In this document: one piece after another, positions 3,819 to 62,501 of the stretch | How the letters are laid out: each line of letters starts with the position of its first letter | How positions within the stretch are numbered: the first letter of the stretch is position 1 | IMG/VR virus record: IMGVR_UViG_3300025168_000065 | Length of the DNA stretch: 64,000 bases | Reading direction: 5' to 3' (one strand) | Source of the DNA: an uncultured virus (IMG/VR IMGVR_UViG_3300025168_000065) | Taxonomy: Duplodnaviria; Heunggongvirae; Uroviricota; Caudoviricetes; Crassvirales | Translations under genes and position numbers: made by a program | Notes under the pieces: generated by a model | Database searches by the model: none | The model's input: only the letters and a program-made list of their open reading frames with translations | Told to the model about the DNA's origin: nothing

Positions 3819-4401
3819 GGATTTATCATCCATATCCGTAAAGGATAAAACTGAAAAGAAAGGAAAGTTTAGTTATTTATCATGGGCTACTGCGTGGAGT
3901 ATGATTAAGAATGAGTACCCTAATGCACAAAGAAAGGTATATGAAAGTGAGCATACTGGACTTAACTTTTTTACTGATGGTAAATCTGCATATGTTAAGG
4001 TAGGTATTATAATAAATGATATGGAACATATTGATTACCTACCAGTAATGGACTATCGTAATAATTCTATACCTATTGAAAAGGTTTCTTCTATGGATGT
4101 AAACACTGCAATACAAAGATCAACTGCTAAAGCAATTGCTATGCATGGTTTAGGATTAAGTTTATGGATTGGTGAGGATACTATATCTGTAGTGAAAGCA
4201 CCTCAACCAGTAAGTAAAACTCCTACTCCTAAAGTATCTAAAAAAATAACCTTAGATATTGGAGATGCAAATTGGAGTAAGGTTCTTAATTACATTGGAT
4301 CTAATAAAGAGTTAGGATTACCTAAGATTGTAAAGAATTTAGAGGCAAAGTATAATATCAAGGCAGTAGTTAAGAAAGAATTATCTAAAGCTATAAAATA
4401 A
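3793..4401 (+). CDS. Sak/DUF1071-type single-strand annealing protein
   Basis: YLSWATAW, LPVMDYRN and AKAIAMHGLGLSLWIGED motifs. Confidence 0.85.
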   Translation: MEKKKNIFKDLSSISVKDKTEKKGKFSYLSWATAWSMIKNEYPNAQRKVYESEHTGLNFFTDGKSAYVKVGIIINDMEHIDYLPVMDYRNNSIPIEKVSSMDVNTAIQRSTAKAIAMHGLGLSLWIGEDTISVVKAPQPVSKTPTPKVSKKITLDIGDANWSKVLNYIGSNKELGLPKIVKNLEAKYNIKAVVKKELSKAIK

Positions 4402-15700: not shown

Positions 15701-18700
15701 TCTCATTAACTTAATAGCTTCTGACTTACTATATATATCTGCAGGTAAAGTCTTACGCATAAAGTTTCTAAGCTCTCTTTGTATTTTTCTTAATTCTTTT
15801 TTACCTTTAGTCTTAGCTCTTAATATTATTCTGGCTTTACGGATAGCCGCATTCAAGTTTGTACTTTGCTTACCACCTAAAGCTTTAGCAACATCCATTT
15901 CTAATACCATCTGCTCAGTAGAAATTCCTTTCAGTACAGCATCAGCCATTTTTTTATACTCAGGCTGTGCTCTTAAGAAATCCATAGCCTGATCCATTAT
16001 CTCTTGTTCTGATAGTTTGGTTTTAGCTTTAGCATTTTTAGTTATTAACTTATTATAATGATTAGAAACTTTATTAAATAATTTAATACCAGCCTTCATA
16101 CCCCCTACTATATTACCCATTGATGGTGGTATAATACTAAGAAGGTCTGCATTTACTTTCATTAAGTCTCTAACCTCAGTCTTAGTAAACTTTCTTACTC
16201 TTGTTAAGTAATCAAGAATAGCAGGATCTGTAAAGTTTAAGTCTCTTGCTTTATTAATTATCTGTAATGGTGTATCAAACTTATTAAAAGTCTTTTGTGC
16301 TTTCTCATCTACACTTCTTTGTGCTTTTTCTTTAGTAGGTGTATATACCTTACCATCTGGTTGGATTAATTTATATCCAGTAAGCTCACCTATATCTCCT
16401 CTTTTTACTTCTACTTTGAACCCTAATGAGTTTGCCCAGTCTTCTAAAGCTACTCTATTAACTCCTGGCTTATTAAAGATAACACCATTCTTTTTCATCT
16501 CATACATCTTAGCCAGTCTATCTACTGAAGCTTTCTGTGCTTTTTCAGTAGCAGGTTTAGTAATAGACTTAACCGCTGTACCTACAGCTCCACCATAGGG
16601 AGCTATACTTGAAGTTTGTTCCGAAATACCTTTACCTTCTATTTTTGCTTTAATAGCTTCAGGCATTATTTCTTTTGCATTTAATTTAATATCAGGTACC
16701 CCTACAACTTCACCTAATATATCATAAGCATAAGTAGAGTGATTGGATTTACCACCTACAGAAGTTGGTTTTAACACCATCATAATATCATTCTGAGCAA
16801 ATTCGTTTTCTTTATAGAAACCATCTCTTAAAGATTGTAAATCTACAAATCCACCTAATGTATTTACCAGTGCATGAAATTTAGTATTAGGTTTTTTAGA
16901 TTGTTCATTTACTGCTATTAAAAAAGTTTTTCTTTTAGGGCTTCTTCTCATCGCAGGCCAGCTATCAAACTCTTCTAAAGTTTCTCTAATATTTTTAACT
17001 GGATTAGTTGCTAATGCTTTTTTCTTAAATGTATTATAATCACCTAAGTTATTAGCATACTTATCAAATACTTTTTTGTTAAATAACTTACTGGTTTCTG
17101 GAGAACCACTTATAATAAATATAAAATCAGCAGCAGTTATATTTTTGTCTAATTTTTTAGTATCTAAACCACTTGCCCATATAGCTCCTTTCTTTATATT
17201 TTCAGGTTGTAATGCAAAACTTGGACCTGCATCCATACCATTACCTAATCCTAATTGATCCGCTACCCAAAACCAAACTTTCTGGTCATTCTTAATTATG
17301 TTATCTACTAATCCTAATAAATCAATCTTATTTTTAGGAGTAACTAAAGACATATCATAAGACTTCTTAAAATCTATCTGAGGCTTTTCTGTTTTAGATG
17401 GTTTATTAATAGTGGTTGGAGTTCCAATAGGAGCTGTTCCGTCATCTATCACTTCTATATCTCCTTCTGTAACTTCTGTTCCCTCTCTTACTTTCTTAGA
17501 TACTGTGTTGAAGAACTCAATCATATCAGCCTCTTCCTTAGTAAACTCTGTTATGTTAACAGGTAAACCAACAGCTTTAGCTGCTTTCTGTAACCATCTC
17601 TTTACTATATTTTTAGTTGGCCCATCTAACTGCGTATAAGCTGCAGATAAATATCCAAACAACTCAGACACTTGCTCTTCATTTTGTTCTTCAATAGCAT
17701 AGTCTTTAGCAAAATCTTCTATAACTTCTTTTAAATTAGAATCTTTAGGCATTGCTTTTACTACAGCATCTAACATTCTCTTTGTAACTTTATTAAAGTC
17801 TGCATTGATTCCCAGTTTCTTTAATAGCACTGCGTGCATAACCTCATGGGCAACAGTTCTGGTATTAGCCTTAGGAGCGTTGATATGAATAGTATTAGTT
17901 GTGGGAGAAAAGGTTCCTCGTGTTCCTTTGTTTGCCGCACTAACTGCTTGATTATAAGCGTCTTCTGTAGCGTGAAGCACAATATTGGCATTAGGCATTA
18001 ACTTAGCAATAGCCTTACCTGCATTCTTAGCTTGTCTTAATAAAGAAGGAAGAATCCTTACTGCTTTAGGATCACCTGCAGTTTCAGTTACACTTACATT
18101 TTCACTTACACTTACACCTGGTAGTGTTACCTTTGTCCCATCATTTTTTTCTATAGTAACATTATCATTTTCACTATCTACTTCAACTCCTTTAGTTTTA
18201 ACCTTAGAATCAGTTTGTTCAGGAGTTCCTTCTTGCTCCTGCATACCTGTTTGTTCATTAAATATAGATGTTAAATCTTCTACTTCCTCTTGCGTCTGCG
18301 AGTCAATATCTGTTTCACTTTCGATACTTTCCTGGGCAGGCTCCCCTTGGGTGTCTCGCTCTCCCACTTCTTGGCTACCCTCGGTAGATTCTTGTACATC
18401 CACTTTCTTTGGGCTTGACTTTTGAATGGCATCTCTTTTAGTTTTAATTTGTTCAGGAGTTGGGTTCTCTACTCCCTCCTCTTTTAATTCATTTATTGCC
18501 TGAGTATTTAACTCAGTCTCTTGTGCTTCTTGTTGGTTTTGTATATTACCAGATCGAACTATTCTTTCTACATCATTCTCTAAATCTAACAACTCTTGTT
18601 GTTGTCTTTTAGTTAATTGTTTATTATATTTATCTATATCATCTTGAAGTTCTTGCTGTCTTAAAAGATTACCAAGTAACTCTTTCTTTTGATTAGTAGG

Positions 18701-21013
18701 AAGGTCAGATGGTATTTGATCCATAACACCATTAACTTTATCATACATATCAATTTCACGCTGTCCTTCCTCTTTAGTAATTTCATTATTTAAAATACGC
18801 TCTTTAGTTTTTTGAATAAACGCATCTCTTACTACAGGTTCGTTATGAATATCTTCATACATTTCAAATATACCATCAGCTAATTTGGTAAAGTCTCCAG
18901 TAGATGCTACAGTTGCAATAGCTGAAGGAGTACCAATTACAAATCCTCCCACTGCCTCTTGTGCTCCTGCTCTTATTACTTGCTTAACCCCATCTCCAAA
19001 TGACTCAGGAGTATTAAACATATCTTTACCTTTCATAGCATTATAAGCTTCTTTAAAACCTATATCAGCAATTTCTTGTGCTAAACCTGTTTCAAACTCA
19101 GCAAGTCCCGCTGCACTTACTACTAACGATCCTTGCGCAATCATACTATTTACTTCTTTTTTAACTACTTCTCTAAAAGTTTTTCCTGTAATATCTTTCC
19201 CATGCTTATTAAGAACTTTTAATAATACTTTACTTGCTAAACCTTTCTGAGCAATAGCATTTCTAAACCCAAGATTTTCTAACACACCAACTACTATACC
19301 TAAAGGAATAGTAAACTTAACTTTTTCTCCTTCTGTTACATCATCAAACTCAGGATTGTTAGCCATCTCCTCCATTACATGATCCTCTACTTGAGATATC
19401 ATATTAAAAACTCTTATTGGTGCAGGCCCTAACATAGCTGGTATAGACTCAGTTACTCCTAAAAGAGCACCGCCCCAAAAACCTTCTTTGGTTTTTTTAG
19501 TTGCCTCAATAGTAGTTTCAGACATTCCTATTGTTTCTCTTAAGCCTCCTCTTACCGCTGGTATTACGTCAGATTTAATATCTTTTCTTAACTCGTCTAA
19601 AATTTTAGATTCTATATCATCTAATAAAGTTGTAGTTACTTTTCGAGTAGAAGCAGGGGTACCATCTTTTATAGATCTTGCTGATTTAATTTCTTTAGTA
19701 GTTCCTGGAGTTTTTTCTATTAACTCTAAAAATCTTTCATACTCTTCATTATTAGAAATAATTTCTTGTATTCTTTCATCTGTGTATGTATCTCCTAAGG
19801 CACCTGATTCTCTTGCTTTAGTAAGAACTTTTGTCCTATAATCATCTTCACTCATTAATCCACTACCCACTGGTCCTTGTACATAAGTTCCAAAATCAAT
19901 AATTCTATTTGCATTTTGAGTAGCTATACGTGCAGCTCCATCTAAAAAAGCATTATATCCTAAGCCTAAAACACTCTTTTGCTTAGACCTCATTTCATAC
20001 CAATCACCTAAACTCTCATCTAACTCTTTACTTTTAGTTCGTAAATTCTTTTGAGATGTTCTAATGTTTTGTTGAGCAATAGCAAGTTTCTCTGCAAGAA
20101 CTTTAGGTGTTGTTGACATTTGATTTCCATCAGGGCCTTCTACATATATTACTTCATCAGGATCTTTTTCTTCTATATTATTAGAATCATAAAAATTTTT
20201 AGCAGCTAAATATTCTTCTATTTCATTTTTTATTAAAGAAGCTTCATCACTAAAACTTTTATTTATTTCATCAACTTCTTTTTTATTTTGAATCTTGGCT
20301 TGTTTTTTAATATATCCTGACTCTAATTGCTGCAGCTTAGAACTTTCTTCTTTATTATCTTTTAAAAATTGTTTAAGTTCATCTGAATATTTACCTTTAA
20401 AGAATAATGCATCTAACTCTACACTCAACTTTTCTCCATTAGCCGCTTCTACTTTCATTTCATCTCCAGTAAAATCTGCTTCTTTAAAAGTAAATCCGTA
20501 GTCATTAAAATGATAGTTCATTAAAGGAACTACATTCTCTTCTGTTTTAGAAATAAGGTCTGGTGTAATTTGTTGTAAAGACTCCTCAAAAAAATCTGTA
20601 GTATCCTCTTGATCAGGAGTAACAAATTCTGTTTCTTCAGTAGATATAGTTTCAGGTTGTATTAAATCTTCAGGATTTACCTGATTTCCTGCCCCTATAT
20701 TTGTAGTTTCAACATCATTAGTTTCGGTTTCCAAAGACTCCGATGAGCCAGGTTCTTGAACCTCCTCTGTATCTGACACCATAACTTCCTCTTCTCCAGT
20801 ACCATTGCCAACAAGATTTTTTTTTTCACCGATACCAAATAAAGTTACGAAGTCATTAACAGTTCCATTATATCCTGTTTCAACAAAGTGTTTATAGGTA
20901 TCATTAACAGCATCTTCATTGGTATTAAGGAGTGCTTTATAATCATCTATTGTACCTTGGTATCCTGTCTCTACAAAATATTGGTACCCGTCATTAATTG
21001 CTTCTTCGTTCAT
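12734..21013 (-). CDS. giant internal virion/ejection (polyvalent-type) protein with zincin-like HExxH motif
   Basis: 2759 aa; TIHINAP..RTVAHEVMH; third of three internal-protein genes after the tail genes. Confidence 0.75.
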   Translation of the reverse strand: MNEEAINDGYQYFVETGYQGTIDDYKALLNTNEDAVNDTYKHFVETGYNGTVNDFVTLFGIGEKKNLVGNGTGEEEVMVSDTEEVQEPGSSESLETETNDVETTNIGAGNQVNPEDLIQPETISTEETEFVTPDQEDTTDFFEESLQQITPDLISKTEENVVPLMNYHFNDYGFTFKEADFTGDEMKVEAANGEKLSVELDALFFKGKYSDELKQFLKDNKEESSKLQQLESGYIKKQAKIQNKKEVDEINKSFSDEASLIKNEIEEYLAAKNFYDSNNIEEKDPDEVIYVEGPDGNQMSTTPKVLAEKLAIAQQNIRTSQKNLRTKSKELDESLGDWYEMRSKQKSVLGLGYNAFLDGAARIATQNANRIIDFGTYVQGPVGSGLMSEDDYRTKVLTKARESGALGDTYTDERIQEIISNNEEYERFLELIEKTPGTTKEIKSARSIKDGTPASTRKVTTTLLDDIESKILDELRKDIKSDVIPAVRGGLRETIGMSETTIEATKKTKEGFWGGALLGVTESIPAMLGPAPIRVFNMISQVEDHVMEEMANNPEFDDVTEGEKVKFTIPLGIVVGVLENLGFRNAIAQKGLASKVLLKVLNKHGKDITGKTFREVVKKEVNSMIAQGSLVVSAAGLAEFETGLAQEIADIGFKEAYNAMKGKDMFNTPESFGDGVKQVIRAGAQEAVGGFVIGTPSAIATVASTGDFTKLADGIFEMYEDIHNEPVVRDAFIQKTKERILNNEITKEEGQREIDMYDKVNGVMDQIPSDLPTNQKKELLGNLLRQQELQDDIDKYNKQLTKRQQQELLDLENDVERIVRSGNIQNQQEAQETELNTQAINELKEEGVENPTPEQIKTKRDAIQKSSPKKVDVQESTEGSQEVGERDTQGEPAQESIESETDIDSQTQEEVEDLTSIFNEQTGMQEQEGTPEQTDSKVKTKGVEVDSENDNVTIEKNDGTKVTLPGVSVSENVSVTETAGDPKAVRILPSLLRQAKNAGKAIAKLMPNANIVLHATEDAYNQAVSAANKGTRGTFSPTTNTIHINAPKANTRTVAHEVMHAVLLKKLGINADFNKVTKRMLDAVVKAMPKDSNLKEVIEDFAKDYAIEEQNEEQVSELFGYLSAAYTQLDGPTKNIVKRWLQKAAKAVGLPVNITEFTKEEADMIEFFNTVSKKVREGTEVTEGDIEVIDDGTAPIGTPTTINKPSKTEKPQIDFKKSYDMSLVTPKNKIDLLGLVDNIIKNDQKVWFWVADQLGLGNGMDAGPSFALQPENIKKGAIWASGLDTKKLDKNITAADFIFIISGSPETSKLFNKKVFDKYANNLGDYNTFKKKALATNPVKNIRETLEEFDSWPAMRRSPKRKTFLIAVNEQSKKPNTKFHALVNTLGGFVDLQSLRDGFYKENEFAQNDIMMVLKPTSVGGKSNHSTYAYDILGEVVGVPDIKLNAKEIMPEAIKAKIEGKGISEQTSSIAPYGGAVGTAVKSITKPATEKAQKASVDRLAKMYEMKKNGVIFNKPGVNRVALEDWANSLGFKVEVKRGDIGELTGYKLIQPDGKVYTPTKEKAQRSVDEKAQKTFNKFDTPLQIINKARDLNFTDPAILDYLTRVRKFTKTEVRDLMKVNADLLSIIPPSMGNIVGGMKAGIKLFNKVSNHYNKLITKNAKAKTKLSEQEIMDQAMDFLRAQPEYKKMADAVLKGISTEQMVLEMDVAKALGGKQSTNLNAAIRKARIILRAKTKGKKELRKIQRELRNFMRKTLPADIYSKSEAIKLMRKIEQANKDNINEIMNEVMEFAAQKNNVRLHKSIDDLLDPKNTLKKISNILKGVKIDETTRKRLASLKKRIDDGSLATQDKVLEYIYKLETEYDNINKQPEKTEGDYTAMADLQIIMNMVKANNLMSNEDITKVNVLAGVETELKQIITAGRTILKEQLRKAHLEYQRQFEQVFLDVTGRTESFKDQAKKQLKEEGVENPTEAEIQDKITDIIENIKETKDTRARETAKIEKVKNRFKKLGNNIIQRLGNVMAKNSDLFLLMDKISLLPAELFEGNTQEEVTKKIDAANREMKGRMLMNDALIISKFQELFGKKYKSIVTSFGRKTEAFVLPDGTEMVLSPNQMYYLYNQYKDSANHPGLQKTFSTDEKGVAKVMNEITTRLESEQYKNLKEFADWQVEILYPMLYNHYNEAYQDIYRTQMPYNVNYAGMVYREGQEAEGVNLIPGADGGKIQYHNVVAANSTKMREQNKKKIRPMDGTNVLYTYMRDMEYFSAYARPVNDINKLFTNDVIKSEIERLHGKPTMDAITAAIQKIANKGTFKENAQMDNAVDIMQDLFILSRLGINPVVTLKQLTSFITYASDIGYGNWMKNAALSRFGKGKDVKAIWKEISENSTYLQDRDAKSMTKAIEMYSDDAMESVFPDITIGGKRLMTGANKESLINILMYTTKVGDRGAIYLGGVPNYVYYKNKALEAGKTEQEAIDEAIVKFERDTKRSQQSTDLQDRDYYQTRGPIFRALNMFLTTPKQYLRKEVYGIRNMYRLASSGGKSGKGTKTDAARIFLTYHVIMPVFFQFVANGMPGLLADWEDEDAKDLGTAAILGNINALFIYGEFAVKIKDLIIGKPARFLQFKNLPVLTQGEEVFNRFARYRDTKDPKKKQEALYKALAETSQITGLPVNNVRKIFKNMEQLIEGGEDPAKVIMRLFNFSEYQIQNEAERKRNKKSKRKAKKKAGSNPMISGDPMNSEDPMNDKTNPMLGKDPMNSDNPMK
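18280..18432 (-). CDS. overprinted 50-aa basic protein MPFKSQAQRKWMY...
   Basis: Alternative-frame ORF with ATG and TAG, A-rich upstream leader and locally raised GC. Confidence 0.7.
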   Translation of the reverse strand: MPFKSQAQRKWMYKNLPRVAKKWESETPKGSLPRKVSKVKQILTRRRKRK

Positions 21014-24192: not shown

Positions 24193-24999
24193 CTATGGAT
24201 TACTTTTCATTACACTTCCTCCTACAGCAAACAATTCAACTGCATTGGTATTAGTATTTTCAAGCGTAAAATTTAAATAGTATCCACGTGCACCATGTGA
24301 TTCTGCTACAGCATTTTTAGCAAATAAAATAAAGTCTGTAACTGAAGGAACTGTACCTGTAGTACAGTTAACAGTAATAGATCCTAATGTAGCTACACCA
24401 GTAGCAGTAGTAGAGGGTTGAGTGATAGCGGTTATTACACCACCAAGAGTAGGCGTACCTGCTGGAGCAGGGAATGTAGTAGGGGTTACCCAATACATTT
24501 CATCACCAACACTTACTATACTTCCTATGTCTACGTTAAACTCTATAACAACTGCTGTTACAGGACCTGTAATATTAATACACGCCCCAATCCCATTTAC
24601 CGACCTGTCTTTTAAATCTAAGGTGTTTTCATTCTCTCTTAAAAACGTAAACCACTCTCCTTCCTTTTGCTCAAAGTAGGTAGACAACATAGACCCAGTC
24701 CCTAAGTCTGAGAACAAACTTGTACACGCCCACCTGTCATCACTCTCGTACGACATGGTCTTAAACAATTTAATAGTCATCGGCTCTACATTAAACACTG
24801 AGGTAATAGTAGAACTATACTGAACACCGTAATAATTATTTCTTAGTAAATTGGTATTATGTCTATATAACTGACCACCTTTCCAGCTGTAAAAAAAACC
24901 ATTCATACCACACATATAATCTGGTATAAAAGAATAGAACGAAGGCCAGCCTTTTACGTCTTCGCTGTAGGATAATGTTTGTGCTGGGTATGATGACAT
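24193..24999 (-). CDS. tail protein, probably the C-terminal part of the nozzle/stabilization protein
   Basis: TLSYSEDVKGWPSFYSFIP, KLFKTMSYES, KEGEWF and RGYY motifs. Confidence 0.7.
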   Translation of the reverse strand: MSSYPAQTLSYSEDVKGWPSFYSFIPDYMCGMNGFFYSWKGGQLYRHNTNLLRNNYYGVQYSSTITSVFNVEPMTIKLFKTMSYESDDRWACTSLFSDLGTGSMLSTYFEQKEGEWFTFLRENENTLDLKDRSVNGIGACINITGPVTAVVIEFNVDIGSIVSVGDEMYWVTPTTFPAPAGTPTLGGVITAITQPSTTATGVATLGSITVNCTTGTVPSVTDFILFAKNAVAESHGARGYYLNFTLENTNTNAVELFAVGGSVMKSNP

Positions 25000-26459: not shown

Positions 26460-29400
26460 TTAACATGTTCCACTATTTATTACCACACCATTTTGACCAA
26501 GTTGAATCCATTTTTTTGGTGACGTTGTTGATGGGTTATTTACGTCAACTATATAAAAACCAGTACCTAAAAATCCTTCAAAAAACAAAGTTCCATTTAC
26601 ATTAACTTGTGCATTTGGATTACAAGTATTAGTACTGTCCATATAACATATGTCTCCAATTGTAGGGGTACTATAAGCACCAGAGAATGATTTCAATCCT
26701 AAACTTAAAGGACTATTTGTATCAGTAGCACATACTTGTGTAGCATTCTGTGTTTGTGGGCCAAAGTAACATGTGTTACATGGAGGAGTACAAGTACAAC
26801 AAGCTTCTTCAATAGTTGATCCCCCTGTACAATAGCATACTGATTGACTTGTTATCATTCTTAAATCCCATATTAAATATAAATAATCATTAACAGCAGG
26901 CATATTAAAAGCTGGTTCAGTAGCCTGAAACACACCTGTAGATGGATTAGTTATAGGACCACTAACTACTGATGATGCCGCAAGTAAACTGGCAATATCT
27001 GCAGTACTATTACTATACAAAGTACTTGAAGATAATATTTTAAAACTATGTAATGCAGGATCAAAATCAAAATTATCAGGAATAATTTTTTGAGTCCTTA
27101 TATTTATATCTGAACCTGTAGATGGGAAAACACCAACTCCTCTTACCCCTGTAGATGATTGATATATTGCTGGTTGAGATGTTGTTAAAGCTGCTGCCGT
27201 TAAATTATAAGGACTTATTGTAGGAGTGTTAGTCCAATTATAAGATGTATGAATAAACTCATTAACATAATTTGGAGAATTAACCACAACCTGAACAACT
27301 GTTAAAGGTATGGTTGGCGGACACTCTATTGTTATCTCATAGCTACTTAAATTATTAACTGTAATATCTACATTAGCTTGTGCCGATGGAAGAGATTTGT
27401 TAAAACTTAATGTTCCTGCACCTGTTAATCCTACTTGATTTATAACTACCGAACCGTTCCAAGTAATAACTATATCAATAGACCCTAAAGTTATATTGTA
27501 TGGTATATTAACTTGACCTGTTACTGTTCCTAAAGAAACATTGTAATTTAAATTATCAGTAGTACTATACTGAGTTAATGTAGTACCACAAGGAACCTTA
27601 GCTCCTGGAATAAATATACCAGTGTTGTTTGTAGTTAAAACATACTCATTCATATAAGGATCATAACCTCCTAATTTTTGAGTAGCAAGTTGAGCGTTAA
27701 ATCTATCTCTAAACCAAGAGTTCATACCATATTGTGACACAACTTGTAGTTGATCACTACCTTGAGATGCACCTCTTAAGTTAAGTACAGCTCCTCTTTT
27801 GGTATCTGTAAAAAACATATCATATCCCCAAGAGGTAAAACTTTCAGGATTAAAACTAATTCCAAATTCTTCTATTCGTGCTACCTGAGTTCCTAATATT
27901 TCAGGTACAGATGCAATTGCACCACCACCTGTAGAGTCAGTAATAACATTTTTCTTTACTAATACATATGATATTTTATCTTCTTGCAATGTAAGAATGT
28001 CTGTTTCTCTTGCGTGTAATTTCATGATAGGACCAAAAGAAGTTTCGCAATCTTTAAAGTTTACTAAACCTAAATTAAACTCATTTAAGTTATTACTGTT
28101 AGCGGCCCCACTATACACACCGCTGTATGTCATTCCTGCAAAACGGTCAGCCTCTTTAAAGTCTTGATTAGAAACTGCTAATACTCTTTCTCCTAAATTA
28201 AAAAACTTACCTGCTGGACTATCTCCAATTCTATAACTCTCAACACCATTTCCAAATGTATAACAATTATATGCAGTTAAGTCTGTAGTTAAATCTGTAG
28301 TTGGACTTTGATTAACAGAGTTAGGAGCTAAACTATAAGTGTTAGACTGAACGTCATATATAGTATTAGCCATATGATAAGGCTGAGCACCTGCAGTTTG
28401 AGGTTCAATATCTAATAGTTCTGATGCATCATAAAATAAATTAGGGTCTGCATCTTGAGGCACAGTTTCAAATACAAATAAAGATCCCCCTCTTGTAACC
28501 TCTATAAGTGTACTACAATGACCATTATAATATTCAAATGCTTCCCAACAACGAGGAATATTACAAGTATTTACAAAAAATTGTCTACCATTTGTAGCTT
28601 GTCTTATTCTACACACACTATTAAATTGATTTTCTGTACACCCACTTCCTGATGTAACCAGAACTGGATCAAAAGATATAGCCATTTCTTGAGCAGTACT
28701 TGCCTGTTGAGTTGTCATTTGACTTGCAAGATCATCTCCTACAGCCCAAGCGTGAAAGCTTTGGTAATCTGAAGTAGAAACAAAAGACCTATCGTAAGTT
28801 AAACTCTTACTATCACAATCGCCTCCGCCTCCGCCTCTCCAATTACGAATTTTAATTCTTATAGTTGATCCAGCAGGAATGGTATAAGGAACACTTGGAG
28901 TAGCATTATCATTTAAACTATAATTACTGATACATCCATCTTTAAAATTACCTGCATCATTTGCATCTTTAGACATTCTTCCTCTAAAGTAAGAAGGCTC
29001 TGTGCTTTCAATATTAAAACTACCTGGTTTTAATAACATATAAAGACCAGCTAAAGAAACACTCGTTATCTCTTTAGTAGCAAAAGCCTCTACTGCTAAA
29101 ACAGTTGTAGACACTTCTGATGCTACCGCACCTCCTGTGTCCACCTTTACTATTAATTCATCTCCAACTTTTACTAAGTTTTGATTATTACCCTCTAACT
29201 TAAACCACACTAAACTTGGGTCGTTTTCATTAGTCAGACCACTACTTACTCCTGACTGTTTACCTGATCCATCTTGCTGGTAAAAAGTATTTGAAAAAAT
29301 AGTCATATAATTCCCTTCACTTGGCTTTATTACAAACTTATATTTCTTTGCCCAATAAGGAGGTAAGTTACTTAAAGTAACTCGTATTTTATTTTTATAA

Positions 29401-31700
29401 GTTGACTTGTCAGGTTCAACAAATACAGTGTTAGTATCAGAGACTAATACTGTAGATGATCTACCGTAGTCATCCATATACACAACGCCTACTTCGTAAT
29501 CTCTATTTGAATGTAGACTGTTTGTTTTACTTACCTGCCTGTATCCAGCAGTACATCCATACCCTATAAAGTTATAATAAATAAATGCTTCACTATAATT
29601 TGAGGAAGCAGGTGAAGTTCCGTCTGTATAATAATATTGAGTAGCAGGAAGCTCCAGAATGAAACCACCAGCAGTTGCTGTAAACTCAATACCTGAAGGG
29701 CTACACAATGCAGAGCTTCCAGATGCAGGAGTTATTTGATAATTTACCCCACTTGTTTCTAAAGTTACTAAACCACCATTTATATCTGTTAACCCTAAGT
29801 CATTGGCTGCTATTGAATTAACACTTGCTGTTAATCCTGTAGTCATATCCATTACTATATCTCCTACTGCTAATCCAGCAATTAAAGTAAAGTCTATATT
29901 TGAATTGGTTAAAAATCCTGCAACAGCTGCGTCTGTAGCTCCTGAAGTAATAATAGTATTACTACATGTTAAAGGAAAAGATGATGGAGTACATTGTTGT
30001 GCTACCGTTCTTCCACCATTAATTAATTCTAAGTTAGTTCCTGTCATAGGAGTTACTGCAGCTTCATAAAACTTATCTGAAAGTGTAGCTCCTTCATTTG
30101 AATTATAACAAGGATAAAGCTCTTGAATTGAGTTAGAACTAAATCCTTGAGCAATAGAACCTCCTATTCTTTCTTTAAACTCTTGAGATGCACACATTTG
30201 TGTTACATTAGGATAGTCAACAGAACACGTAAAACTCATTCTAATTGTAAAAGGAGACTGCTGATTAAAATTATTTCCATTATTAGTACTACACTCTACC
30301 CCTGTACCGGAATCATTACAGGTAATACTGTTTTGAGAAATAGAAAAACCAAAGAAAAAAGTAGTCCCTGTTTTTATATCTCCTGAAGTTGGATTTGCAG
30401 CCGTTAGATCCCATGTTAATCGAGAGTCGGTACCTAAAGCTCCGCCTCCTATAGTATAAGCAGAAGTCTGTACAAGTGGATTTGCAGCTACTGCAGGAAC
30501 ACCACCTTGAGCAGGACTTGCAACCGATCCATTTCCTAAAGGAACTCCCGCTATCTCTTCAAAGACAGGAGCTACAGTATAATTTATAGGTATTTTATTC
30601 CCATCAAAAGCAGAAAGTAAATCATAACCATCCACATAGTTTCCGTATATTAATCTATTACCTTTAATGGTTTGAGCCTTAGCAGTTCTTGGAACATTAT
30701 CATAAAGTCTTAGTAATTCATCTGAACCTAATGTGGTATAGATTTCACTATTTGTAAATCGATGAGTCATAGTATCATTATTAGGAATACCTAAGTCATC
30801 TTTTTTAAATCTTTTAATAACATTTATAACATTAGATGTAGTTTGTTTAAATAACAAATCTATTTCTACTACTCTTTTAGTACCTGTAGAGAATGTAACA
30901 TCAAAAGCTTTATAAACATTATACATCCCTGCATTTAAATAGTCATCAATACTAAATCTAAATTCACGAGGTTGAAACGCAGGATCACTAAATAAAGATA
31001 TTGCACTATACCCTCCATCTGTATATCTATATCTATAAGCAAAAGTAACAAACCTGGTTTGTAAATAATTTTCTTGACCTACATAGTCCTGTATAGGAAC
31101 CACTACTGGAGATCCTAACGGAAAATTTTGTCCTGCCGTAGTATCAAACTCTTCGTATCCTGGTGGCTTAACTATTACGCTAATATCTTCTTCTTTAAAT
31201 ATAGTATCTATACCGCCTACAGGATAATCATAGTCTCTTGTTACATTAATTACTCGAGGAGGATTTATATCGTCAGTAAAAAATAATAAATCTTCTATCT
31301 TATTTATACCAGTAATTAAATGTTTTTCATCAAAATTTAAAACAGATGTACTTATACAGTGATAAGTCAAAGAAGAAGTATTGGTATTAAAAGATACTAT
31401 TAAGTCAACCTTACCTGTAGGAGAGTTTGGATTATTACTATCATGTATAAACCAATAAAGAGTTTCATTTATACCATCTTCATAAACTCCAAGTGTCTTT
31501 CCATTGACTGTTTGCCCTGCATATTCAACATTAGTTAAAAGAGAATTACCTTTAGAGTTTTCTACAGCTCCTATTTCAGTAGCTTCAGTAGACCCTAAAC
31601 GAACATTTAAAGCATCTATATACTCTCCAGGTGGAACCAAGCGTTCATCAACGCTCTTATTCATTTTACCTGCTATAAAATTTGTTGAGGCTTTTGCCAT
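26460..31700 (-). CDS. tail nozzle / stabilization protein
   Basis: GKMNKSVDERLVPPGEYIDALN, NRLIYGNY, FGNGVES, FGISFNPESF and LGGYDPY motifs. Confidence 0.75.
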   Translation of the reverse strand: MAKASTNFIAGKMNKSVDERLVPPGEYIDALNVRLGSTEATEIGAVENSKGNSLLTNVEYAGQTVNGKTLGVYEDGINETLYWFIHDSNNPNSPTGKVDLIVSFNTNTSSLTYHCISTSVLNFDEKHLITGINKIEDLLFFTDDINPPRVINVTRDYDYPVGGIDTIFKEEDISVIVKPPGYEEFDTTAGQNFPLGSPVVVPIQDYVGQENYLQTRFVTFAYRYRYTDGGYSAISLFSDPAFQPREFRFSIDDYLNAGMYNVYKAFDVTFSTGTKRVVEIDLLFKQTTSNVINVIKRFKKDDLGIPNNDTMTHRFTNSEIYTTLGSDELLRLYDNVPRTAKAQTIKGNRLIYGNYVDGYDLLSAFDGNKIPINYTVAPVFEEIAGVPLGNGSVASPAQGGVPAVAANPLVQTSAYTIGGGALGTDSRLTWDLTAANPTSGDIKTGTTFFFGFSISQNSITCNDSGTGVECSTNNGNNFNQQSPFTIRMSFTCSVDYPNVTQMCASQEFKERIGGSIAQGFSSNSIQELYPCYNSNEGATLSDKFYEAAVTPMTGTNLELINGGRTVAQQCTPSSFPLTCSNTIITSGATDAAVAGFLTNSNIDFTLIAGLAVGDIVMDMTTGLTASVNSIAANDLGLTDINGGLVTLETSGVNYQITPASGSSALCSPSGIEFTATAGGFILELPATQYYYTDGTSPASSNYSEAFIYYNFIGYGCTAGYRQVSKTNSLHSNRDYEVGVVYMDDYGRSSTVLVSDTNTVFVEPDKSTYKNKIRVTLSNLPPYWAKKYKFVIKPSEGNYMTIFSNTFYQQDGSGKQSGVSSGLTNENDPSLVWFKLEGNNQNLVKVGDELIVKVDTGGAVASEVSTTVLAVEAFATKEITSVSLAGLYMLLKPGSFNIESTEPSYFRGRMSKDANDAGNFKDGCISNYSLNDNATPSVPYTIPAGSTIRIKIRNWRGGGGGDCDSKSLTYDRSFVSTSDYQSFHAWAVGDDLASQMTTQQASTAQEMAISFDPVLVTSGSGCTENQFNSVCRIRQATNGRQFFVNTCNIPRCWEAFEYYNGHCSTLIEVTRGGSLFVFETVPQDADPNLFYDASELLDIEPQTAGAQPYHMANTIYDVQSNTYSLAPNSVNQSPTTDLTTDLTAYNCYTFGNGVESYRIGDSPAGKFFNLGERVLAVSNQDFKEADRFAGMTYSGVYSGAANSNNLNEFNLGLVNFKDCETSFGPIMKLHARETDILTLQEDKISYVLVKKNVITDSTGGGAIASVPEILGTQVARIEEFGISFNPESFTSWGYDMFFTDTKRGAVLNLRGASQGSDQLQVVSQYGMNSWFRDRFNAQLATQKLGGYDPYMNEYVLTTNNTGIFIPGAKVPCGTTLTQYSTTDNLNYNVSLGTVTGQVNIPYNITLGSIDIVITWNGSVVINQVGLTGAGTLSFNKSLPSAQANVDITVNNLSSYEITIECPPTIPLTVVQVVVNSPNYVNEFIHTSYNWTNTPTISPYNLTAAALTTSQPAIYQSSTGVRGVGVFPSTGSDINIRTQKIIPDNFDFDPALHSFKILSSSTLYSNSTADIASLLAASSVVSGPITNPSTGVFQATEPAFNMPAVNDYLYLIWDLRMITSQSVCYCTGGSTIEEACCTCTPPCNTCYFGPQTQNATQVCATDTNSPLSLGLKSFSGAYSTPTIGDICYMDSTNTCNPNAQVNVNGTLFFEGFLGTGFYIVDVNNPSTTSPKKWIQLGQNGVVINSGTC

Positions 31701-57983: not shown

Positions 57984-59579
57984 TTAATCATCTTTCCCTG
58001 CTCTGGCGTGCGTTATAATTGCATTGGTAGTAAGGATAGTCGTAGCTACACTTATTGCATTAGAGAGCGCCTGACAGGTAACCTTAGCTGGATCAATAAC
58101 CCCCATCTTAAACATATCTCCCCACTCCCCTGTCTTTACATTCAATCCTTCATTATTAGCATCATACATAAGCTTTTCGTTATCATCTTCAGATAACTCT
58201 AAGCCTGCATTAGAATATATTTGCAACAAAGGCGCTCGAAGTGCTGTCGCTAAAATCTTACCTGCAATCTTATAGTTCATATCTTCAGCGAATGTAGCTT
58301 TTTTATAAAGCGCTACACCTCCCCCTGCTACTATCCCTTCCTGTAGTGCGGACCGCACTGCACAGACAGAGTCATCGACTCTGTCGAATTTTTCTTTTTG
58401 CTCAATATCAGAGGTAGCTCCAACGTAAATACATCCTATACCACCAACCAAAGATGCGATACGCTCGTTCACAAAGTCTCTCTCGTGCTTAGCAGTTAGT
58501 GTTTCTTGCTGTAGTCTAAGCTCTGTCACCCTGTTCATAGTCTCCTTAGTAATCTCGCCGTTCTTAATTATTATGGCATTGTCTTTCCCTACAATAATTT
58601 TATCTGCATACCCTAAGTCCTCAGGTCTAATCAATGATAAATCATCTCCAGTCTTTTCTGAAAAGTATTTAGCACCTACTGAGAACGCAATGTCCTGCAT
58701 TAACTCATGAGACTTGTAGCCGAATGATGGCACCATGATATTACAAAACTTTAAACCATTACGCTGAACGTTAGCCGCCATAGTATTAATAACATTCTGA
58801 GAGCAGTTCCCTATGATAAGAAGCTTCTCTCCAGCATTAATAATTGGTTTAAGTACATTCTCAATCTGAAGTATGTTGGTTATCTCTGTATCACACAGCA
58901 AAACCTTAACACCCTCCATAATACACTCGTCCTTTCTCTGGTCATTAATAAACATCGTAGAGGTATAACCCCTATCAACCTTTATCCCGTTAGTAACCTC
59001 AGAATATGTTTTGTCAGTTTGAGATCTCTCAACCGTTACAATACCATCCCTACCAACTTCCTTGTAGGCCTCAGCTATAATCTTACCGATCTCTGGATCA
59101 TTATTAGCAGAGATAGTCGCAATATCCTCCAGCATATCATCAGTAACTGGGATTGCTCTTTCTTTAATCTCGTCTAAAATAGCTTCTCCCTGCCATCTAA
59201 TATCTCTAACTATCTCTATGGTATTATCACCCTCCTTAATATACTTCTGACCCGCCTTTACTAAAGCCTCCGTCAAAACAATAGCCGTAGTTGTTCCATC
59301 ACCAGCTACATTAGCCGTCTTCTCCGAAGCTTGCTTCATCATCCTAACCGCTAAGTTCTCTACAGGATCAATAAGAAATATACTCTTAGCCACAGTAACA
59401 CCATCCTTAGTCACTGTTAACCCCTGAGTATGCTGGGTCGATTCAATTAAAACAGTCTGACCCTGAGGCCCCAATGTTGACTTAACCGCATTAGATATTT
59501 TTGAGATTCCCGATATTAGTTTTGTTCTTGCCTGCTCATCAAACGACAGGTCTTTTGGAATGTATCCTTGTTCTTGCAT
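57984..59579 (-). CDS. groEL: chaperonin GroEL (Cpn60)
   Basis: VKSTLGPQG, TKDGVTVAK, AGDGTTTA, GIVAGGG and GVIDPAKV motifs. Confidence 0.97.
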   Translation of the reverse strand: MQEQGYIPKDLSFDEQARTKLISGISKISNAVKSTLGPQGQTVLIESTQHTQGLTVTKDGVTVAKSIFLIDPVENLAVRMMKQASEKTANVAGDGTTTAIVLTEALVKAGQKYIKEGDNTIEIVRDIRWQGEAILDEIKERAIPVTDDMLEDIATISANNDPEIGKIIAEAYKEVGRDGIVTVERSQTDKTYSEVTNGIKVDRGYTSTMFINDQRKDECIMEGVKVLLCDTEITNILQIENVLKPIINAGEKLLIIGNCSQNVINTMAANVQRNGLKFCNIMVPSFGYKSHELMQDIAFSVGAKYFSEKTGDDLSLIRPEDLGYADKIIVGKDNAIIIKNGEITKETMNRVTELRLQQETLTAKHERDFVNERIASLVGGIGCIYVGATSDIEQKEKFDRVDDSVCAVRSALQEGIVAGGGVALYKKATFAEDMNYKIAGKILATALRAPLLQIYSNAGLELSEDDNEKLMYDANNEGLNVKTGEWGDMFKMGVIDPAKVTCQALSNAISVATTILTTNAIITHARAGKDD

Positions 59580-60558: not shown

Positions 60559-60588
60559 TTGACAATCCAATTATTTATAGTATATTTG
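60559..60588 (+). promoter_or_regulatory. early promoter (TTG-N19-TATATTTG)
   Basis: Matches the Bacteroidota -33/-7 consensus; precedes the first plus-strand ORF. Confidence 0.75.
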
Positions 60589-60630: not shown

Positions 60631-60777
60631 ATGGAACAAAGAGTAGAGTACATTAGACAAGAAATCAGAGTATTGAATCAAGCATTAACATTAGTAAATG
60701 AGATAGATTCTCTTTACATTAAAGAAATGATAAAAGAAAAGGAAAAATACATTCGCCTGATGAGAATGCAAGACTAA
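60631..60777 (+). CDS. small early protein (48 aa, not in ORF track)
   Basis: MEQRVEYIRQEIRVLNQAL...; same ACACACACAAAATG leader as neighbouring genes. Confidence 0.7.
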   Translation: MEQRVEYIRQEIRVLNQALTLVNEIDSLYIKEMIKEKEKYIRLMRMQD

Positions 60778-60778
60778 A

Positions 60779-60846
60779 CCTCACCAACTACCGAATGGCT
60801 CGTACTGAATTAAGTACGGGCTTTTCGTAGTAGAGGGATATTCCTC
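60779..60846 (+). ncRNA. structured intergenic element B1 (long hairpin plus GAGGGATRTTCCTC hairpin)
   Basis: gctcgtact/agtacgggc stem, actac/gtagt outer stem, 3' motif shared with 62463-62480. Confidence 0.65.
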
Positions 60847-60868
60847 GCAAGATTAAAACACACACAAA

Positions 60869-61351
60869 ATGAATAAGCAACAAGAAGAATTAGCAATGAG
60901 ATTAGATTTAAAAACACCATACAAATGGGTAATGGATAATCTAATTCCAAACCAATCATCTGATGTACAAGAGAGATGGAAGATAATGAGTAAAATGGTA
61001 GAATTGAATCAGGAATGGGTAGAGGAAGTAGTAAACAATGGAGATTTAAAGTTATCTGAAGTATTGCATGACTTTAGAGGTATCTACTCAGAGGATGAGC
61101 ATTTCGTACCAAGAATATCTACTGAAGTTTCTGATGATAGGGTTAACGGATACACTAACCTTCAAACCTACCGATTATGTTTAGTATTAGATAACGAGCA
61201 AGTAGTACCTAATCCCTTAACAAGATTCTTAGAGTTAGTACAAGAGAATGAGTTTGAATCTAATGATATTGATATTATCAATTGGAATGAGGTAATTGAG
61301 AGATACTCTGATAGCATTCTTTTAGAGCATTCGTTTTACGCAAACAAATAA
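60869..61351 (+). CDS. early hypothetical protein (two-module)
   Basis: 160 aa; second half has NGYTNLQTY...INWNEV motif. Confidence 0.7.
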   Translation: MNKQQEELAMRLDLKTPYKWVMDNLIPNQSSDVQERWKIMSKMVELNQEWVEEVVNNGDLKLSEVLHDFRGIYSEDEHFVPRISTEVSDDRVNGYTNLQTYRLCLVLDNEQVVPNPLTRFLELVQENEFESNDIDIINWNEVIERYSDSILLEHSFYANK

Positions 61352-61405
61352 GATACTCTGATGAGGACTCAGTGTCCGAAACACTACGCAAGTAGTGTCA
61401 GTATC
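61352..61405 (+). ncRNA. type I hammerhead ribozyme HH1 (predicted cleavage after C61399)
   Basis: gatact-CTGATGA-ggac tcagt gtcc-GAAA-cactac gcaa gtagtg-TC-agtatc: complete core and three perfect stems. Confidence 0.93.
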
Positions 61406-61431
61406 ATAAGATACCAATTAACACACACACA

Positions 61432-61641
61432 ATGACAACAAGCGAAAAAGCAGTAGAGGTACTTAAAACCAAGTACGGCATAGATGCAAGAATCTATAAG
61501 GACAATGTATACTTAGCAGTATGGAATGATGACTTATCCGACACCATAGATGTTGAAGCGTCTAAAGGACAAGTAGAAGATTGGGCATTAGAACATGACA
61601 AAGAATGTACTTGGTATGGAGAATATAAAGCAAAGCAATAG
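61432..61641 (+). CDS. early hypothetical protein flanked by two hammerheads
   Basis: 69-aa acidic ORF with CA-rich leader. Confidence 0.75.
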   Translation: MTTSEKAVEVLKTKYGIDARIYKDNVYLAVWNDDLSDTIDVEASKGQVEDWALEHDKECTWYGEYKAKQ

Positions 61642-61642
61642 A

Positions 61643-61699
61643 GATACTCTGATGATGGATTTAATATCCGAAACTACTCTTAATTGAGTAGTCAGTATC
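61643..61699 (+). ncRNA. type I hammerhead ribozyme HH2 (predicted cleavage after C61693)
   Basis: gatact-CTGATGA-t-ggat ttaat atcc-GAAA-ctactc ttaatt gagtag-TC-agtatc; one extra U after the core; compensatory changes versus HH1. Confidence 0.9.
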
Positions 61700-61726
61700 A
61701 TAAGATACCAATTTAAATAACACACA

Positions 61727-61951
61727 ATGTATAAAACAATGGTTAAAGATTCCCAAGATTTTTGGGGAAAAGTAGCGTCCGAAAATGGATGGAGTATGAA
61801 TGGTAGAGGATGTACAATATGGATTAATAAAGACAATGAAGTATTAGATAGTATCTACAACAAAGAAGATAATAAAGAATCTTATATTGTACAAGTAGAT
61901 GTAGATTATGAAGGTTTCTATGAGAATGAGGTATTAATTAAAACAATATAG
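61727..61951 (+). CDS. early hypothetical protein
   Basis: 74 aa; FWGKVASENGW motif; CA-rich leader. Confidence 0.75.
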   Translation: MYKTMVKDSQDFWGKVASENGWSMNGRGCTIWINKDNEVLDSIYNKEDNKESYIVQVDVDYEGFYENEVLIKTI

Positions 61952-61953
61952 AT

Positions 61954-62112
61954 ATGAAAGATATATTAGGATTACCGATAAAATGGTTAGCAAGATACTA
62001 CTACACAATATTGATAGTATGGTTAACATTAACGATGAGTAGCTGTGGATTAAGATTTGGAGACTACCATGCATGGGAAAAAGATTATAAACAAAAATGT
62101 ATAAGAAAATGA
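61954..62112 (+). CDS. small putative lipoprotein (52 aa, not in ORF track)
   Basis: MKDILGLPIKWLARYYYTILIVWLTLTMSSCGLRFG...; hydrophobic stretch ending in MSSC. Confidence 0.6.
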   Translation: MKDILGLPIKWLARYYYTILIVWLTLTMSSCGLRFGDYHAWEKDYKQKCIRK

Positions 62113-62411
62113 TGAGATTAAAATTAAGTATGATAACATTTAATATGTTAGAGAGTCATTTCAGTAATGACTACGGGAAAAAGAATGGTAATGGTGTAGC
62201 TATGCCACTTGGAGATGATAGCTTACATATGATTCATAATGAAGGTGCATTAGAGAATTACAAAGAGACGATAACAAAAAAGTTTGGAGATGTTATGGTG
62301 TTATTACAGGATCCTGACGAGGTATGGTTTAACAAGGTAAAGATTGATGACGGAGTATTTCAAGATTATCATAGAAAATATATGCAGAAAGCAATGAATA
62401 ATAGGAATTAA
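62097..62411 (+). CDS. early hypothetical protein
   Basis: ORF track; true start may be ATG 62109. Confidence 0.7.
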   Translation: MYKKMMRLKLSMITFNMLESHFSNDYGKKNGNGVAMPLGDDSLHMIHNEGALENYKETITKKFGDVMVLLQDPDEVWFNKVKIDDGVFQDYHRKYMQKAMNNRN

Positions 62412-62412
62412 C

Positions 62413-62485
62413 GTGTGTGTTTCCATCATCTAACCTCACTACGAAAGTAGTGGGGATTTGGTGGTAGAGGGATGTTCCTCACACA
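62413..62485 (+). ncRNA. structured intergenic element B2
   Basis: cctcactac-gaaa-gtagtgggg hairpin, ccatca/tggtgg outer stem, GAGGGATGTTCCTC hairpin, tgtgt/acaca closing stem. Confidence 0.65.
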
Positions 62486-62501
62486 ATTAAATTAAATTAT
62501 T

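What the first reader, a model, noticed from the sequence alone, without database searches (positions are those of the whole stretch)
61400..61693. Tandem hammerheads could release a 294-nt, circularizable, single-gene RNA
Seen: cleavage at both sites yields fragment 61400-61693 (294 nt), containing the CA-rich leader and the entire 69-aa ORF 61432-61641. Stem I is identical in both ribozymes, so the fragment's 5' agtatc (61400-61405) can pair with its own gatact (61643-61648) and rebuild a hammerhead across the two ends. Known: hammerhead products carry 5'-OH and 2',3'-cyclic phosphate ends that can be joined by the reverse reaction or RtcB; retrozymes make circular RNAs from tandem hammerheads this way. 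Inference: this may be a phage-encoded circular mRNA or a ribozyme-bounded mobile gene cassette.
Basis: inference. Interest (0 to 1): 0.8.

Follow-up and report, generated by a model that had tools for sequence, protein, structure and literature searches.

The report
Two hammerhead ribozymes bracketing a phage gene
Two genuine self-cutting hammerhead RNA motifs bracket one small early gene of a marine phage and most likely chop a long message into single-gene messages, a layout known in phages since 2011; related phages gain, lose and swap exactly such ribozyme-bounded gene units in their DNA, but nothing shows a circular RNA.

Summary
Two type-I hammerheads lie at 61352-61405 and 61643-61699, with predicted cuts after 61399 and 61693. 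The 294-nt piece between the cuts holds a leader and the 69-aa ORF.

A covariance model built only from 79 hammerheads of other phage contigs hits the window at exactly these two places (69.9 and 64.6 bits; next best 12.9). Stems covary: 15 of 17 pairs carry compensatory changes.

In 74 family members the motif sits between a stop codon and a start codon 15-45 nt after the cut (70 of 74). The best reading is therefore intercistronic mRNA processing, as described for prophages by Perreault et al. 2011.

The circular-RNA idea stays untested. No junction contig was found. The fragment's 5' end is predicted to fold into its own hairpin (p about 0.89) and to rebuild stem I only rarely (p about 0.03).

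The cassette idea is supported at the DNA level. One relative lacks exactly this unit. Another carries the same unit (89% identical) between different genes. Stem II and stem III variants reassort, which places crossovers inside the ribozyme.

This is a new member of a known kind. This scan has reported the same layout on other DNA before.

The parts
60559..60588 (+). Putative early promoter of the rightward small-gene operon (consensus match only)
   Evidence: TTGACA-16-TATATT, 11 of 12, is the best site of the scan. TATATTTG at 60581-88 was read. That this fits a Bacteroidota -7 box is recalled, not tested.
60631..60777 (+). 48-aa first ORF of the operon
   Evidence: no family in Pfam
60778..60868 (+). 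Structured intercistronic spacer (long irregular hairpin plus a second hairpin) followed by the same CA-rich leader; not a hammerhead
   Evidence: MFE -29.6 kcal/mol, z -5.3. Two copies in G007/G009 sit before f6 and f4. Only noise-level Rfam matches.
60869..61351 (+). ORF f4 (160 aa), the gene that most often precedes this hammerhead in relatives
61352..61405 (+). Hammerhead 1, type I; predicted cut between 61399 and 61400
61401..61414 (+). 5'-terminal hairpin of the downstream product (5 bp, loop AUAA); its 3' arm repeats the stem I 5' strand
   Evidence: ATAAGATAC occurs at 61348-56 and again in the hairpin
61415..61431 (+). Unstructured CA-rich leader up to the start codon
61432..61641 (+). 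ORF f6, short form (69 aa): conserved N-terminal ~55 aa of a 127-141-aa protein family plus a short tail
   Evidence: The same short form occurs in L149 (7 synonymous and 4 non-synonymous codon differences).
61643..61699 (+). Hammerhead 2, type I, with an extra U at 61656; predicted cut between 61693 and 61694
   Evidence: The extra U is seen in 7 of 74 family members.
61695..61708 (+). Second copy of the 5'-terminal hairpin
61727..61951 (+). ORF f7 (74 aa), the gene served by hammerhead 2

Best explanation
The two elements are active-type, type-I hammerhead self-cleaving ribozymes in the spacers of a phage early operon. The phage is a crAss-like podovirus related to phages of Flavobacteriia.

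Each ribozyme starts at the stop codon of the upstream gene. Each cuts 32-33 nt before the next start codon. Self-cleavage during or just after transcription would turn the polycistronic RNA into separate linear messages.

The upstream piece would end in the folded ribozyme with a 2',3'-cyclic phosphate. The downstream piece would begin with a 5'-OH, a small hairpin and an unstructured CA-rich leader. The hairpin's 3' arm is a copy of the stem I 5' strand. After the cut, the released end can therefore swap partners, which favours product release over re-ligation.

The same conserved ribozyme-plus-leader module also serves as a DNA recombination joint. Through it, related phages gain, lose and exchange single small genes.

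Shown here: motif, structure, covariation, position rule, and unit gain, loss and relocation in relatives. Inferred: cleavage in vivo, the fate of the ends, the hairpin's role, and recombination as the route.
For: Motif and structure: the full core and three helices are present. Minimum-energy folds give the hammerhead shape. Among 10 close sequences 98.8% of 166 cells pair and 9 of 17 pairs carry changes on both sides. Among 79 wider sequences 98.9% of 1245 cells pair and 15 of 17 pairs do so. Model R2, built without the window, finds exactly these two sites.

Position rule in 74 distinct family members: the first ATG lies 15-45 nt after the cut in 70, that ATG opens at least 40 codons in 67, and an upstream ORF stops within 25 nt before stem I in 64.

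Arrays are common: 20 of 52 other loci hold two or more hammerheads within about 2.4 kb (my count on the table).

Published precedent: clustered hammerheads flank single genes in prophages and cleave in vitro and in E. coli (Perreault 2011, passages read).

The hairpin competes with stem I.

DNA-level shuffling: L129 lacks the unit and L149 has it elsewhere. Four four-gamete violations occur among 5 stem II by 6 stem III variants. The phage encodes a Sak single-strand annealing protein and a PDDEXK nuclease.
Against: There is no cleavage assay and no usable RNA end data. Rfam's own hammerhead models stay below their gathering scores: none; RAGATH-1 18.2 against 56.3; in relatives 25.2 against 34 and 35.9 against 56.3. 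HH2's extra U could lower its activity. The hairpin never varies in the subgroup that has it, so it has no covariation support, and other subgroups lack it. Gene order also varies at junctions without a hammerhead: successor concordance is 60 of 196 there against 24 of 149 at hammerhead junctions, on 21 of 49 gene orders that I picked by hand. The ribozyme is therefore not the only joint.
Confidence: 0.7

Rival explanations
1. Circular mRNA. After both cuts, the 294-nt piece pairs its 5' end with 61643-48 and rebuilds hammerhead 2. It is then closed by the reverse reaction or by a host RtcB-type ligase, giving a stable circular message for the 69-aa protein.
For: Stem I is identical in both ribozymes. 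The ends would carry the right chemistry (established hammerhead chemistry, recalled). In other phage contigs, adjacent hammerheads have cross-compatible stem I more often than random pairs: 6 of 6 pairs in 8 of 27 against 13% of random pairs, and at least 5 of 6 in 18 of 27 against 44%. Their stems II and III are never the same, 0 of 27.
Against: The end-joining helix has a predicted probability of about 0.03, against about 0.89 for the local hairpin. Nine of 27 adjacent pairs have 4 or fewer cross pairs, so compatibility is not a family rule. Of the 9 relatives' records searched, 6 have one hammerhead, 2 have two and 1 has none. The ORF has its own stop codon, so a circle offers no endless frame. 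No RNA ligase turned up among 41 ORFs of 120 aa or more. Perreault 2011 did not detect circles.
Confidence: 0.07
2. Decay or timing switch. The cuts mainly serve to destabilise or uncouple particular early messages, for example a fast shut-off of the upstream gene. On this view they do not build stable single-gene messages, and cleavage is regulated by upstream translation or by ionic conditions.
For: The ribozyme begins at or within a few nt of the upstream stop codon in most members. A terminating ribosome would therefore cover stem I and the core (inference). Perreault 2011 raises regulated cleavage for phage hammerheads.
Against: No ligand-binding or sensor element is visible. Stems II and III are short plain hairpins. 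The conserved leader and the fixed distance to the start codon point to a role for the downstream product.
Confidence: 0.15
3. The conserved modules are kept mainly as DNA recombination sites or as selfish repeats. On this view RNA cleavage is incidental or lost.
For: Unit gain, loss and relocation, and reassorted stems. This parallels the PeSL cassettes of T4-type phages (abstract read).
Against: Compensatory changes keep all three helices paired and the catalytic core never varies across 79 sequences. That pattern is selection on the RNA fold, not on DNA identity.
Confidence: 0.05

Closest known systems
Clustered hammerhead ribozymes flanking single genes or short gene blocks in prophages (Perreault et al. 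2011, PMC3088659; passages read)
   Same: Several hammerheads lie on the coding strand between genes of a phage operon. The flanked genes are not constant. Processing into single-gene mRNAs was proposed, and circular or spliced products were considered.
   Different: Here the phage is an uncultured marine crAss-like podovirus. All motifs are type I with a 6-bp open stem I. This subgroup has a partner-swap hairpin after the cut. Relatives give direct evidence of unit gain, loss and relocation.
Type I hammerhead, Rfam RF00163 / RAGATH-1 hammerhead RF03152
   Same: Same core, same three-helix junction, open stem I.
   Different: Scores stay below both gathering cut-offs. There is no upstream RAGATH-1 hairpin. 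HH2 has an extra U after A9.
RiboJ synthetic insulator (hammerhead plus 23-nt hairpin that normalises the 5' UTR; passage read in PMC7536230)
   Same: A hammerhead is followed by a hairpin, then the translation start region. Cleavage gives every gene the same 5' end.
   Different: Ours is natural, not designed. Our hairpin re-uses the stem I strand. The leader is CA-rich with no Shine-Dalgarno-like motif.
PeSL mobile regulatory cassettes of T4-type phages (Arbiol et al. 2010, PMC2839356; abstract read)
   Same: A short repeated regulatory module flanks small non-essential early genes. Insertions, deletions and replacements between relatives are bounded by the module.
   Different: PeSLs are promoter plus terminator, whereas here the module is a ribozyme plus leader. 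DNA mini-circles were shown for PeSLs and are untested here.
Retrozymes and viroid-like circular RNAs (abstract of PMC5680766 seen in the listing)
   Same: Tandem hammerheads delimit a unit whose ends could be ligated.
   Different: Those units are non-coding, 600-1000 nt, in eukaryotes, and spread by reverse transcription. Here the unit is a protein-coding cistron in a DNA phage, with no reverse transcriptase found.

Membership tests
Hammerhead ribozyme (type I) | Conserved core CUGANGA ... GAAA, U16.1 and a non-G residue at the cleavage site | tested here: met
   Both copies read. The pattern matches 2 places and none in 100 shuffles. The core never varies in alignments A1 and A3.
Hammerhead ribozyme (type I) | Three helices around the core, supported by compensatory changes; stem I open | tested here: met
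   98.8% paired and 9 of 17 pairs compensatory. 98.9% paired and 15 of 17. Slid controls pair in only 21-46% of cells.
Hammerhead ribozyme (type I) | Score at or above Rfam's gathering cut-off (RF00163, RF03152) | tested here: not met
   No match at gathering. RAGATH-1 18.2 against 56.3 on HH2. In relatives, RF00163 25.2 against 34 and RF03152 35.9 against 56.3. The own-family models R1 and R2 score 65-89 bits.
Hammerhead ribozyme (type I) | Self-cleavage at the predicted site | not testable with these tools
   Needs in vitro transcription or end-specific RNA-seq.
Hammerhead ribozyme (type I) | Tertiary contact between loop II and stem I or its flank | tested here: inconclusive
   I looked by eye for a loop II to leader pairing shared by both copies and found none that held in both. 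No tool test was made.
Clustered phage hammerheads (Perreault 2011) | Two or more hammerheads close together, on the gene strand, flanking single genes in a phage genome | tested here: met
   phage genes; arrays in relatives
Retrozyme / viroid-like circular RNA | Circular RNA product with the cut-site junction | tested here: inconclusive
   No joints in 4 RNA libraries, but they hold only sparse assembled contigs of relatives.
Retrozyme / viroid-like circular RNA | Non-coding unit that depends on reverse transcription or rolling-circle RNA replication | tested here: not met
   The unit is a conserved protein-coding cistron. No reverse transcriptase among 41 ORFs of 120 aa or more, nor among the 9 proteins (8 of the window, 1 of L027).
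PeSL-like mobile regulatory cassette | Indels and replacements between relatives are bounded by the repeated module | tested here: met
   L129 lacks one HH-to-HH period. L149 has the unit between other genes. Homology blocks end at 61434-35, 61630-42 and 61729.
PeSL-like mobile regulatory cassette | The module is a promoter plus a terminator stem-loop | tested here: not met
   The module is a ribozyme plus a leader. No promoter-like site of rank lies within it.

The most novel reading that the evidence does not exclude
The 294-nt ribozyme-bounded unit is a true mobile gene cassette that passes through a circular intermediate. The circle could be a circular mRNA closed by the rebuilt hammerhead or a host RtcB-type ligase. 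It could instead be a 294-bp DNA mini-circle made by recombination between the two ribozyme-leader repeats. In either case self-cleaving ribozymes would act as the 'attachment sites' of a phage gene-cassette system, not only as RNA scissors.
Probability: 0.07. Interest if true: 0.8.

Novelty: new member of a known kind. Interest (0 to 1): 0.4.

Why it matters
What the many bacterial and phage hammerheads are for is still an open question; reviews say so (PMC6765202, passage read). This family gives a clean positional rule: stop codon, ribozyme, about 26 nt, start codon. It also gives a possible product-release hairpin, and comparative evidence that ribozyme-bounded single genes are shuffled among related marine phages with crossovers inside the ribozyme.

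The locus does not show a new kind of system. It does offer a compact test case for two questions. First, do phage hammerheads act as natural cistron insulators? Second, do repeated regulatory RNAs double as recombination joints? A cultured relative with one family member exists: Flavobacterium phage elemoA, NC_055852.1, 17280-17347 on the minus strand.

Tried and rejected
- Rfam at gathering score found no match in the window. At E up to 1 over the whole window no hammerhead model matched. Only a small-region scan gave a weak RAGATH-1 match.
- blastn of 60800-62500 against 50,697 phage records found no match.
- No whole genome is held for this window.
- RNA evidence: 4 RNA libraries from 3 studies were laid. 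They held only short assembled contigs of relatives. There were no joints, and no contig bridged either cut site. Coverage is far too sparse to count for or against cleavage or circles.
- PHROGs and Pfam gave no family for the small genes f4, f6, f7 and their neighbours.
- Hairpin covariation cannot be tested. The hairpin never varies in the GAUACU subgroup apart from one one-sided change that keeps a G-U pair in L169. It is absent from other subgroups.
- A loop II to leader pseudoknot was considered by eye and dropped, because no pairing held in both copies.
- 'Identical stem I within a genome' as a rule: it is enriched but not general. The null is inflated because the seed pattern fixes three of the six pairs, and shared ancestry is not controlled.
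- 'The 69-aa ORF is a dead truncation': rejected. The same short form with the same tail occurs in L149.
- The resemblance of the ORF's last ~25 nt to the 3' end of f4 in G002 is weak. I do not rest on it.
- The two-hairpin spacer at 60778-60868 as a known ribozyme: only noise-level microRNA-type matches.

Full report
**What the window is**

The window has 32.7% G+C. It carries a terminase, portal, virion proteins and a GroEL-type chaperonin. It also carries crAss-type muzzle proteins, a Sak single-strand annealing protein and a PDDEXK nuclease.

Its terminase is 72% identical to that of an uncultured podovirus. It is 45% identical to Flavobacterium phages of the genus Elemovirus and 36-37% to Cellulophaga phages. 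It is therefore a podovirus of the kind that infects Flavobacteriia.

The finding lies at the start of a rightward block of small genes. This block sits behind the best promoter-like site of the region, at 60559-60586.

**Checking the observation**

Both elements are there exactly as described.

- HH1 spans 61352-61405 and HH2 spans 61643-61699.
- Each has a 6-bp open stem I (GAUACU/AGUAUC), the core CUGAUGA, a 4-bp stem II, GAAA, a 7-bp stem III and a GUC cleavage triplet.
- The cuts fall after 61399 and 61693, giving a 294-nt piece.
- That piece holds a 32-nt leader and the 69-aa ORF 61432-61641.

Several tests show this is more than chance.

- The combined pattern matches twice in the window and in none of 100 shuffles.
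- My own scan for type-I geometry found only these two strong candidates, plus one weak one with 3-4-bp stems.
- Minimum-energy folds give the hammerhead shape for both copies.
- Rfam reports nothing at its gathering scores, and no hammerhead at E up to 1 over the whole window.
- A small-region scan gives only a weak RAGATH-1 hammerhead match on HH2, 18.2 bits against a cut-off of 56.3.
- In relatives the Rfam models reach 25.2 of 34 bits (RF00163) and 35.9 of 56.3 bits (RF03152).

**Independent support from other sequences**

The exact stem I plus core pattern occurs in 11 viral contigs. They give 10 distinct sequences together with the window.

On these, 98.8% of 166 cells pair and 9 of 17 pairs carry changes on both sides. 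No shuffle of 500 reaches the covariation score, and slid controls pair in 21-46% of cells.

A relaxed pattern found 84 stretches. Model R1 found 79 hammerheads in 52 of those loci that do not belong to the window's own subgroup. On that alignment 98.9% of 1245 cells pair and 15 of 17 pairs are compensatory.

Model R2 was built from those 79 sequences only. It hits the window at 61352-61415 (69.9 bits) and 61643-61709 (64.6 bits), with the next hit at 12.9 bits.

HH2's extra U after A9 recurs in 7 of 74 distinct family members and is always a U. So it is a tolerated natural variant. I recall that an extra residue at this place is known from a viroid hammerhead, but I did not check this.

**What the family does, judged by position**

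The 74 distinct members show a consistent placement.

- In 70 the first ATG lies 15-45 nt after the cut, with a median of 26 nt.
- In 67 that ATG opens at least 40 codons.
- In 64 an upstream ORF stops within 25 nt before stem I, most often within one base of it.

The element is thus an intercistronic punctuation mark.

Arrays are common. Twenty of 52 loci of about 2.4 kb hold two or more copies, and up to four lie within 1.1 kb (the count is mine). Perreault et al. 2011 described this layout in prophages. They showed cleavage in vitro and in E. coli and proposed processing into single-gene mRNAs. They also considered circular or spliced products but did not detect them (passages read). A 2019 review still calls the purpose open (passage read).

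**A feature of this subgroup: a partner-swap hairpin**

Right after each cut site the RNA reads AGUAUC-AUAA-GAUAC. The last nine bases repeat the 'stop codon plus stem I 5' strand' that lies upstream.

Before cleavage, the hammerhead fold and the hairpin fold are nearly equal in energy: -19.0 for the minimum-energy fold against -18.6 kcal/mol for the centroid. In the free 294-nt piece the hairpin has a probability of about 0.89. The end-joining stem I has about 0.03.

I infer that the hairpin helps release the product and caps the new 5' end. This resembles the synthetic RiboJ insulator, a hammerhead plus hairpin that normalises the 5' UTR (passage read in PMC7536230). The hairpin never varies, so covariation cannot back this inference.

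**The circular-RNA idea**

The idea is chemically possible and I could not test it directly.

- All available RNA runs are assembled contigs. The four I laid hold short pieces of relatives, show no joints and bridge neither cut site. This says nothing either way.
- Against the idea: the ensemble figures above; the counts of hammerheads in the 9 relatives' records searched (6 have one, 2 have two, 1 fragment has none); the ORF's own stop codon; no RNA ligase among 41 ORFs of 120 aa or more; and the negative remark in Perreault 2011.
- Mildly for the idea: in 27 adjacent hammerhead pairs of other contigs, the upstream 3' strand can pair fully with the downstream 5' strand in 8 (30%), against 13% of random pairs. 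Stems II and III are never alike in these pairs. However, 9 of 27 pairs have four or fewer cross pairs, and shared ancestry is not controlled.

**The cassette idea**

This idea is supported, at the DNA level.

Gene orders:

| Genome | Order |
|---|---|
| window | f4 \| HH \| f6 short \| HH \| f7-f8-f9-f10 |
| L129 | f4 \| HH \| f7-f8-f9-f10 |
| G008 | f4 \| HH \| g3-f8-f9-f10 |
| G006 | f4 \| HH \| g36 \| HH \| f7-g3-f8 |
| L149 | g5 \| HH \| g48 \| HH \| f6 short \| HH \| g3-f8-f9 |
| L144 | f4 \| HH \| f6 \| HH \| g3 |
| G009 | f6-f4 \| HH \| f7-f8 |

L129 matches the window at 88.6% up to the first hammerhead-leader and at 88.0% from the second one onward. It therefore lacks exactly one HH-to-HH period. 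L149 carries the whole unit, from ribozyme through leader and short f6 to the next ribozyme. That unit is 88.9% identical over 397 columns and lies between different neighbours. Its short f6 differs from the window's at 7 synonymous and 4 non-synonymous codons.

Across 38 hammerheads of this subgroup, 5 stem II variants and 6 stem III variants occur in 13 combinations. Four of these combinations violate the four-gamete rule. Crossovers must therefore fall inside the roughly 50-nt ribozyme.

Between the window's two copies the identical blocks are 14, 8 and 23 nt long. The phage has its own annealing protein and nuclease.

The closest parallel is the PeSL promoter-terminator cassette of T4-type phages. 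PeSLs mediate modular shuffling and form DNA mini-circles (abstract read).

One caution applies. Junctions without a hammerhead vary too. Successor concordance is 60 of 196 there, against 24 of 149 at hammerhead junctions. This rests on 21 of 49 gene orders that I selected by hand, dropping duplicates, very short loci and distant f4 types.

**Verdict**

- The motifs are real hammerheads of a large phage family.
- The most likely function is cutting the early transcript into linear, hairpin-capped single-gene messages.
- The module also acts as a recombination joint for small-gene cassettes.
- A circular mRNA remains an untested minority reading.
- The layout has been in print since 2011.
- This scan has reported the layout on other DNA: e1-5355983, e1-6096472, e1-5689541 and e1-6284844.
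- My search for papers that link hammerheads with phage mosaicism (at least 3 of 4 terms, 12 of 927 listed) showed none that makes the recombination point. That is a shallow search.

Noticed in passing
window 60778-60868: A strongly structured spacer (long irregular hairpin in an outer helix plus a second hairpin, z -5.3) lies between the 48-aa ORF and f4, followed by the same CA-rich leader. Two covarying copies stand before f6 and f4 in G007/G009, in the place where other relatives have a hammerhead. It could be a host RNase III-type processing site or an attenuator.
   Followed up: partly
window 61302-61312 (inside f4): The first 11 nt of the hammerhead (stem I strand plus the start of the core) recur about 40 nt upstream, inside the f4 coding sequence, where they encode the conserved ERYSD motif. 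The same holds in G008 and L038. It may be an alternative pairing partner or a relic. It remains unexplained.
   Followed up: no
window 12734-21013 (-), 24193-24999 (-), 26460-31700 (-): A 2759-aa ORF with no Pfam or PHROGs family lies near two crAss-type muzzle proteins. It may be the giant virion RNA polymerase type known from crAss-like phages (recalled, not tested).
   Followed up: no
window 57984-59579 (-): A phage-encoded GroEL-type chaperonin (Cpn60_TCP1, E 5e-58).
   Followed up: no
window 3793-5138 (+): A Sak single-strand annealing protein next to a PDDEXK-like nuclease. This is a recombination module that could use short homologies such as the ribozyme blocks.
   Followed up: partly
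L177 (NC_055852.1 17275-17382): In the cultured Flavobacterium phage elemoA, the annotated opposite-strand 'gp68' overlaps a family hammerhead (55.2 bits) that sits in a gap of the minus-strand gene block. That ORF call is probably spurious.
   Followed up: partly
L052 1198-2344; L149 2917-3577; L169 152-1375: Other phage contigs hold arrays of three to four hammerheads spaced 283-700 nt apart, each before a small gene.
   Followed up: partly
L151, L155, L160, L162, L163: A weaker class of matches (30-33 bits) spans about 122 nt, as if one stem carried a large insertion. They lie upstream of gene g4 in more distant relatives.
   Followed up: no
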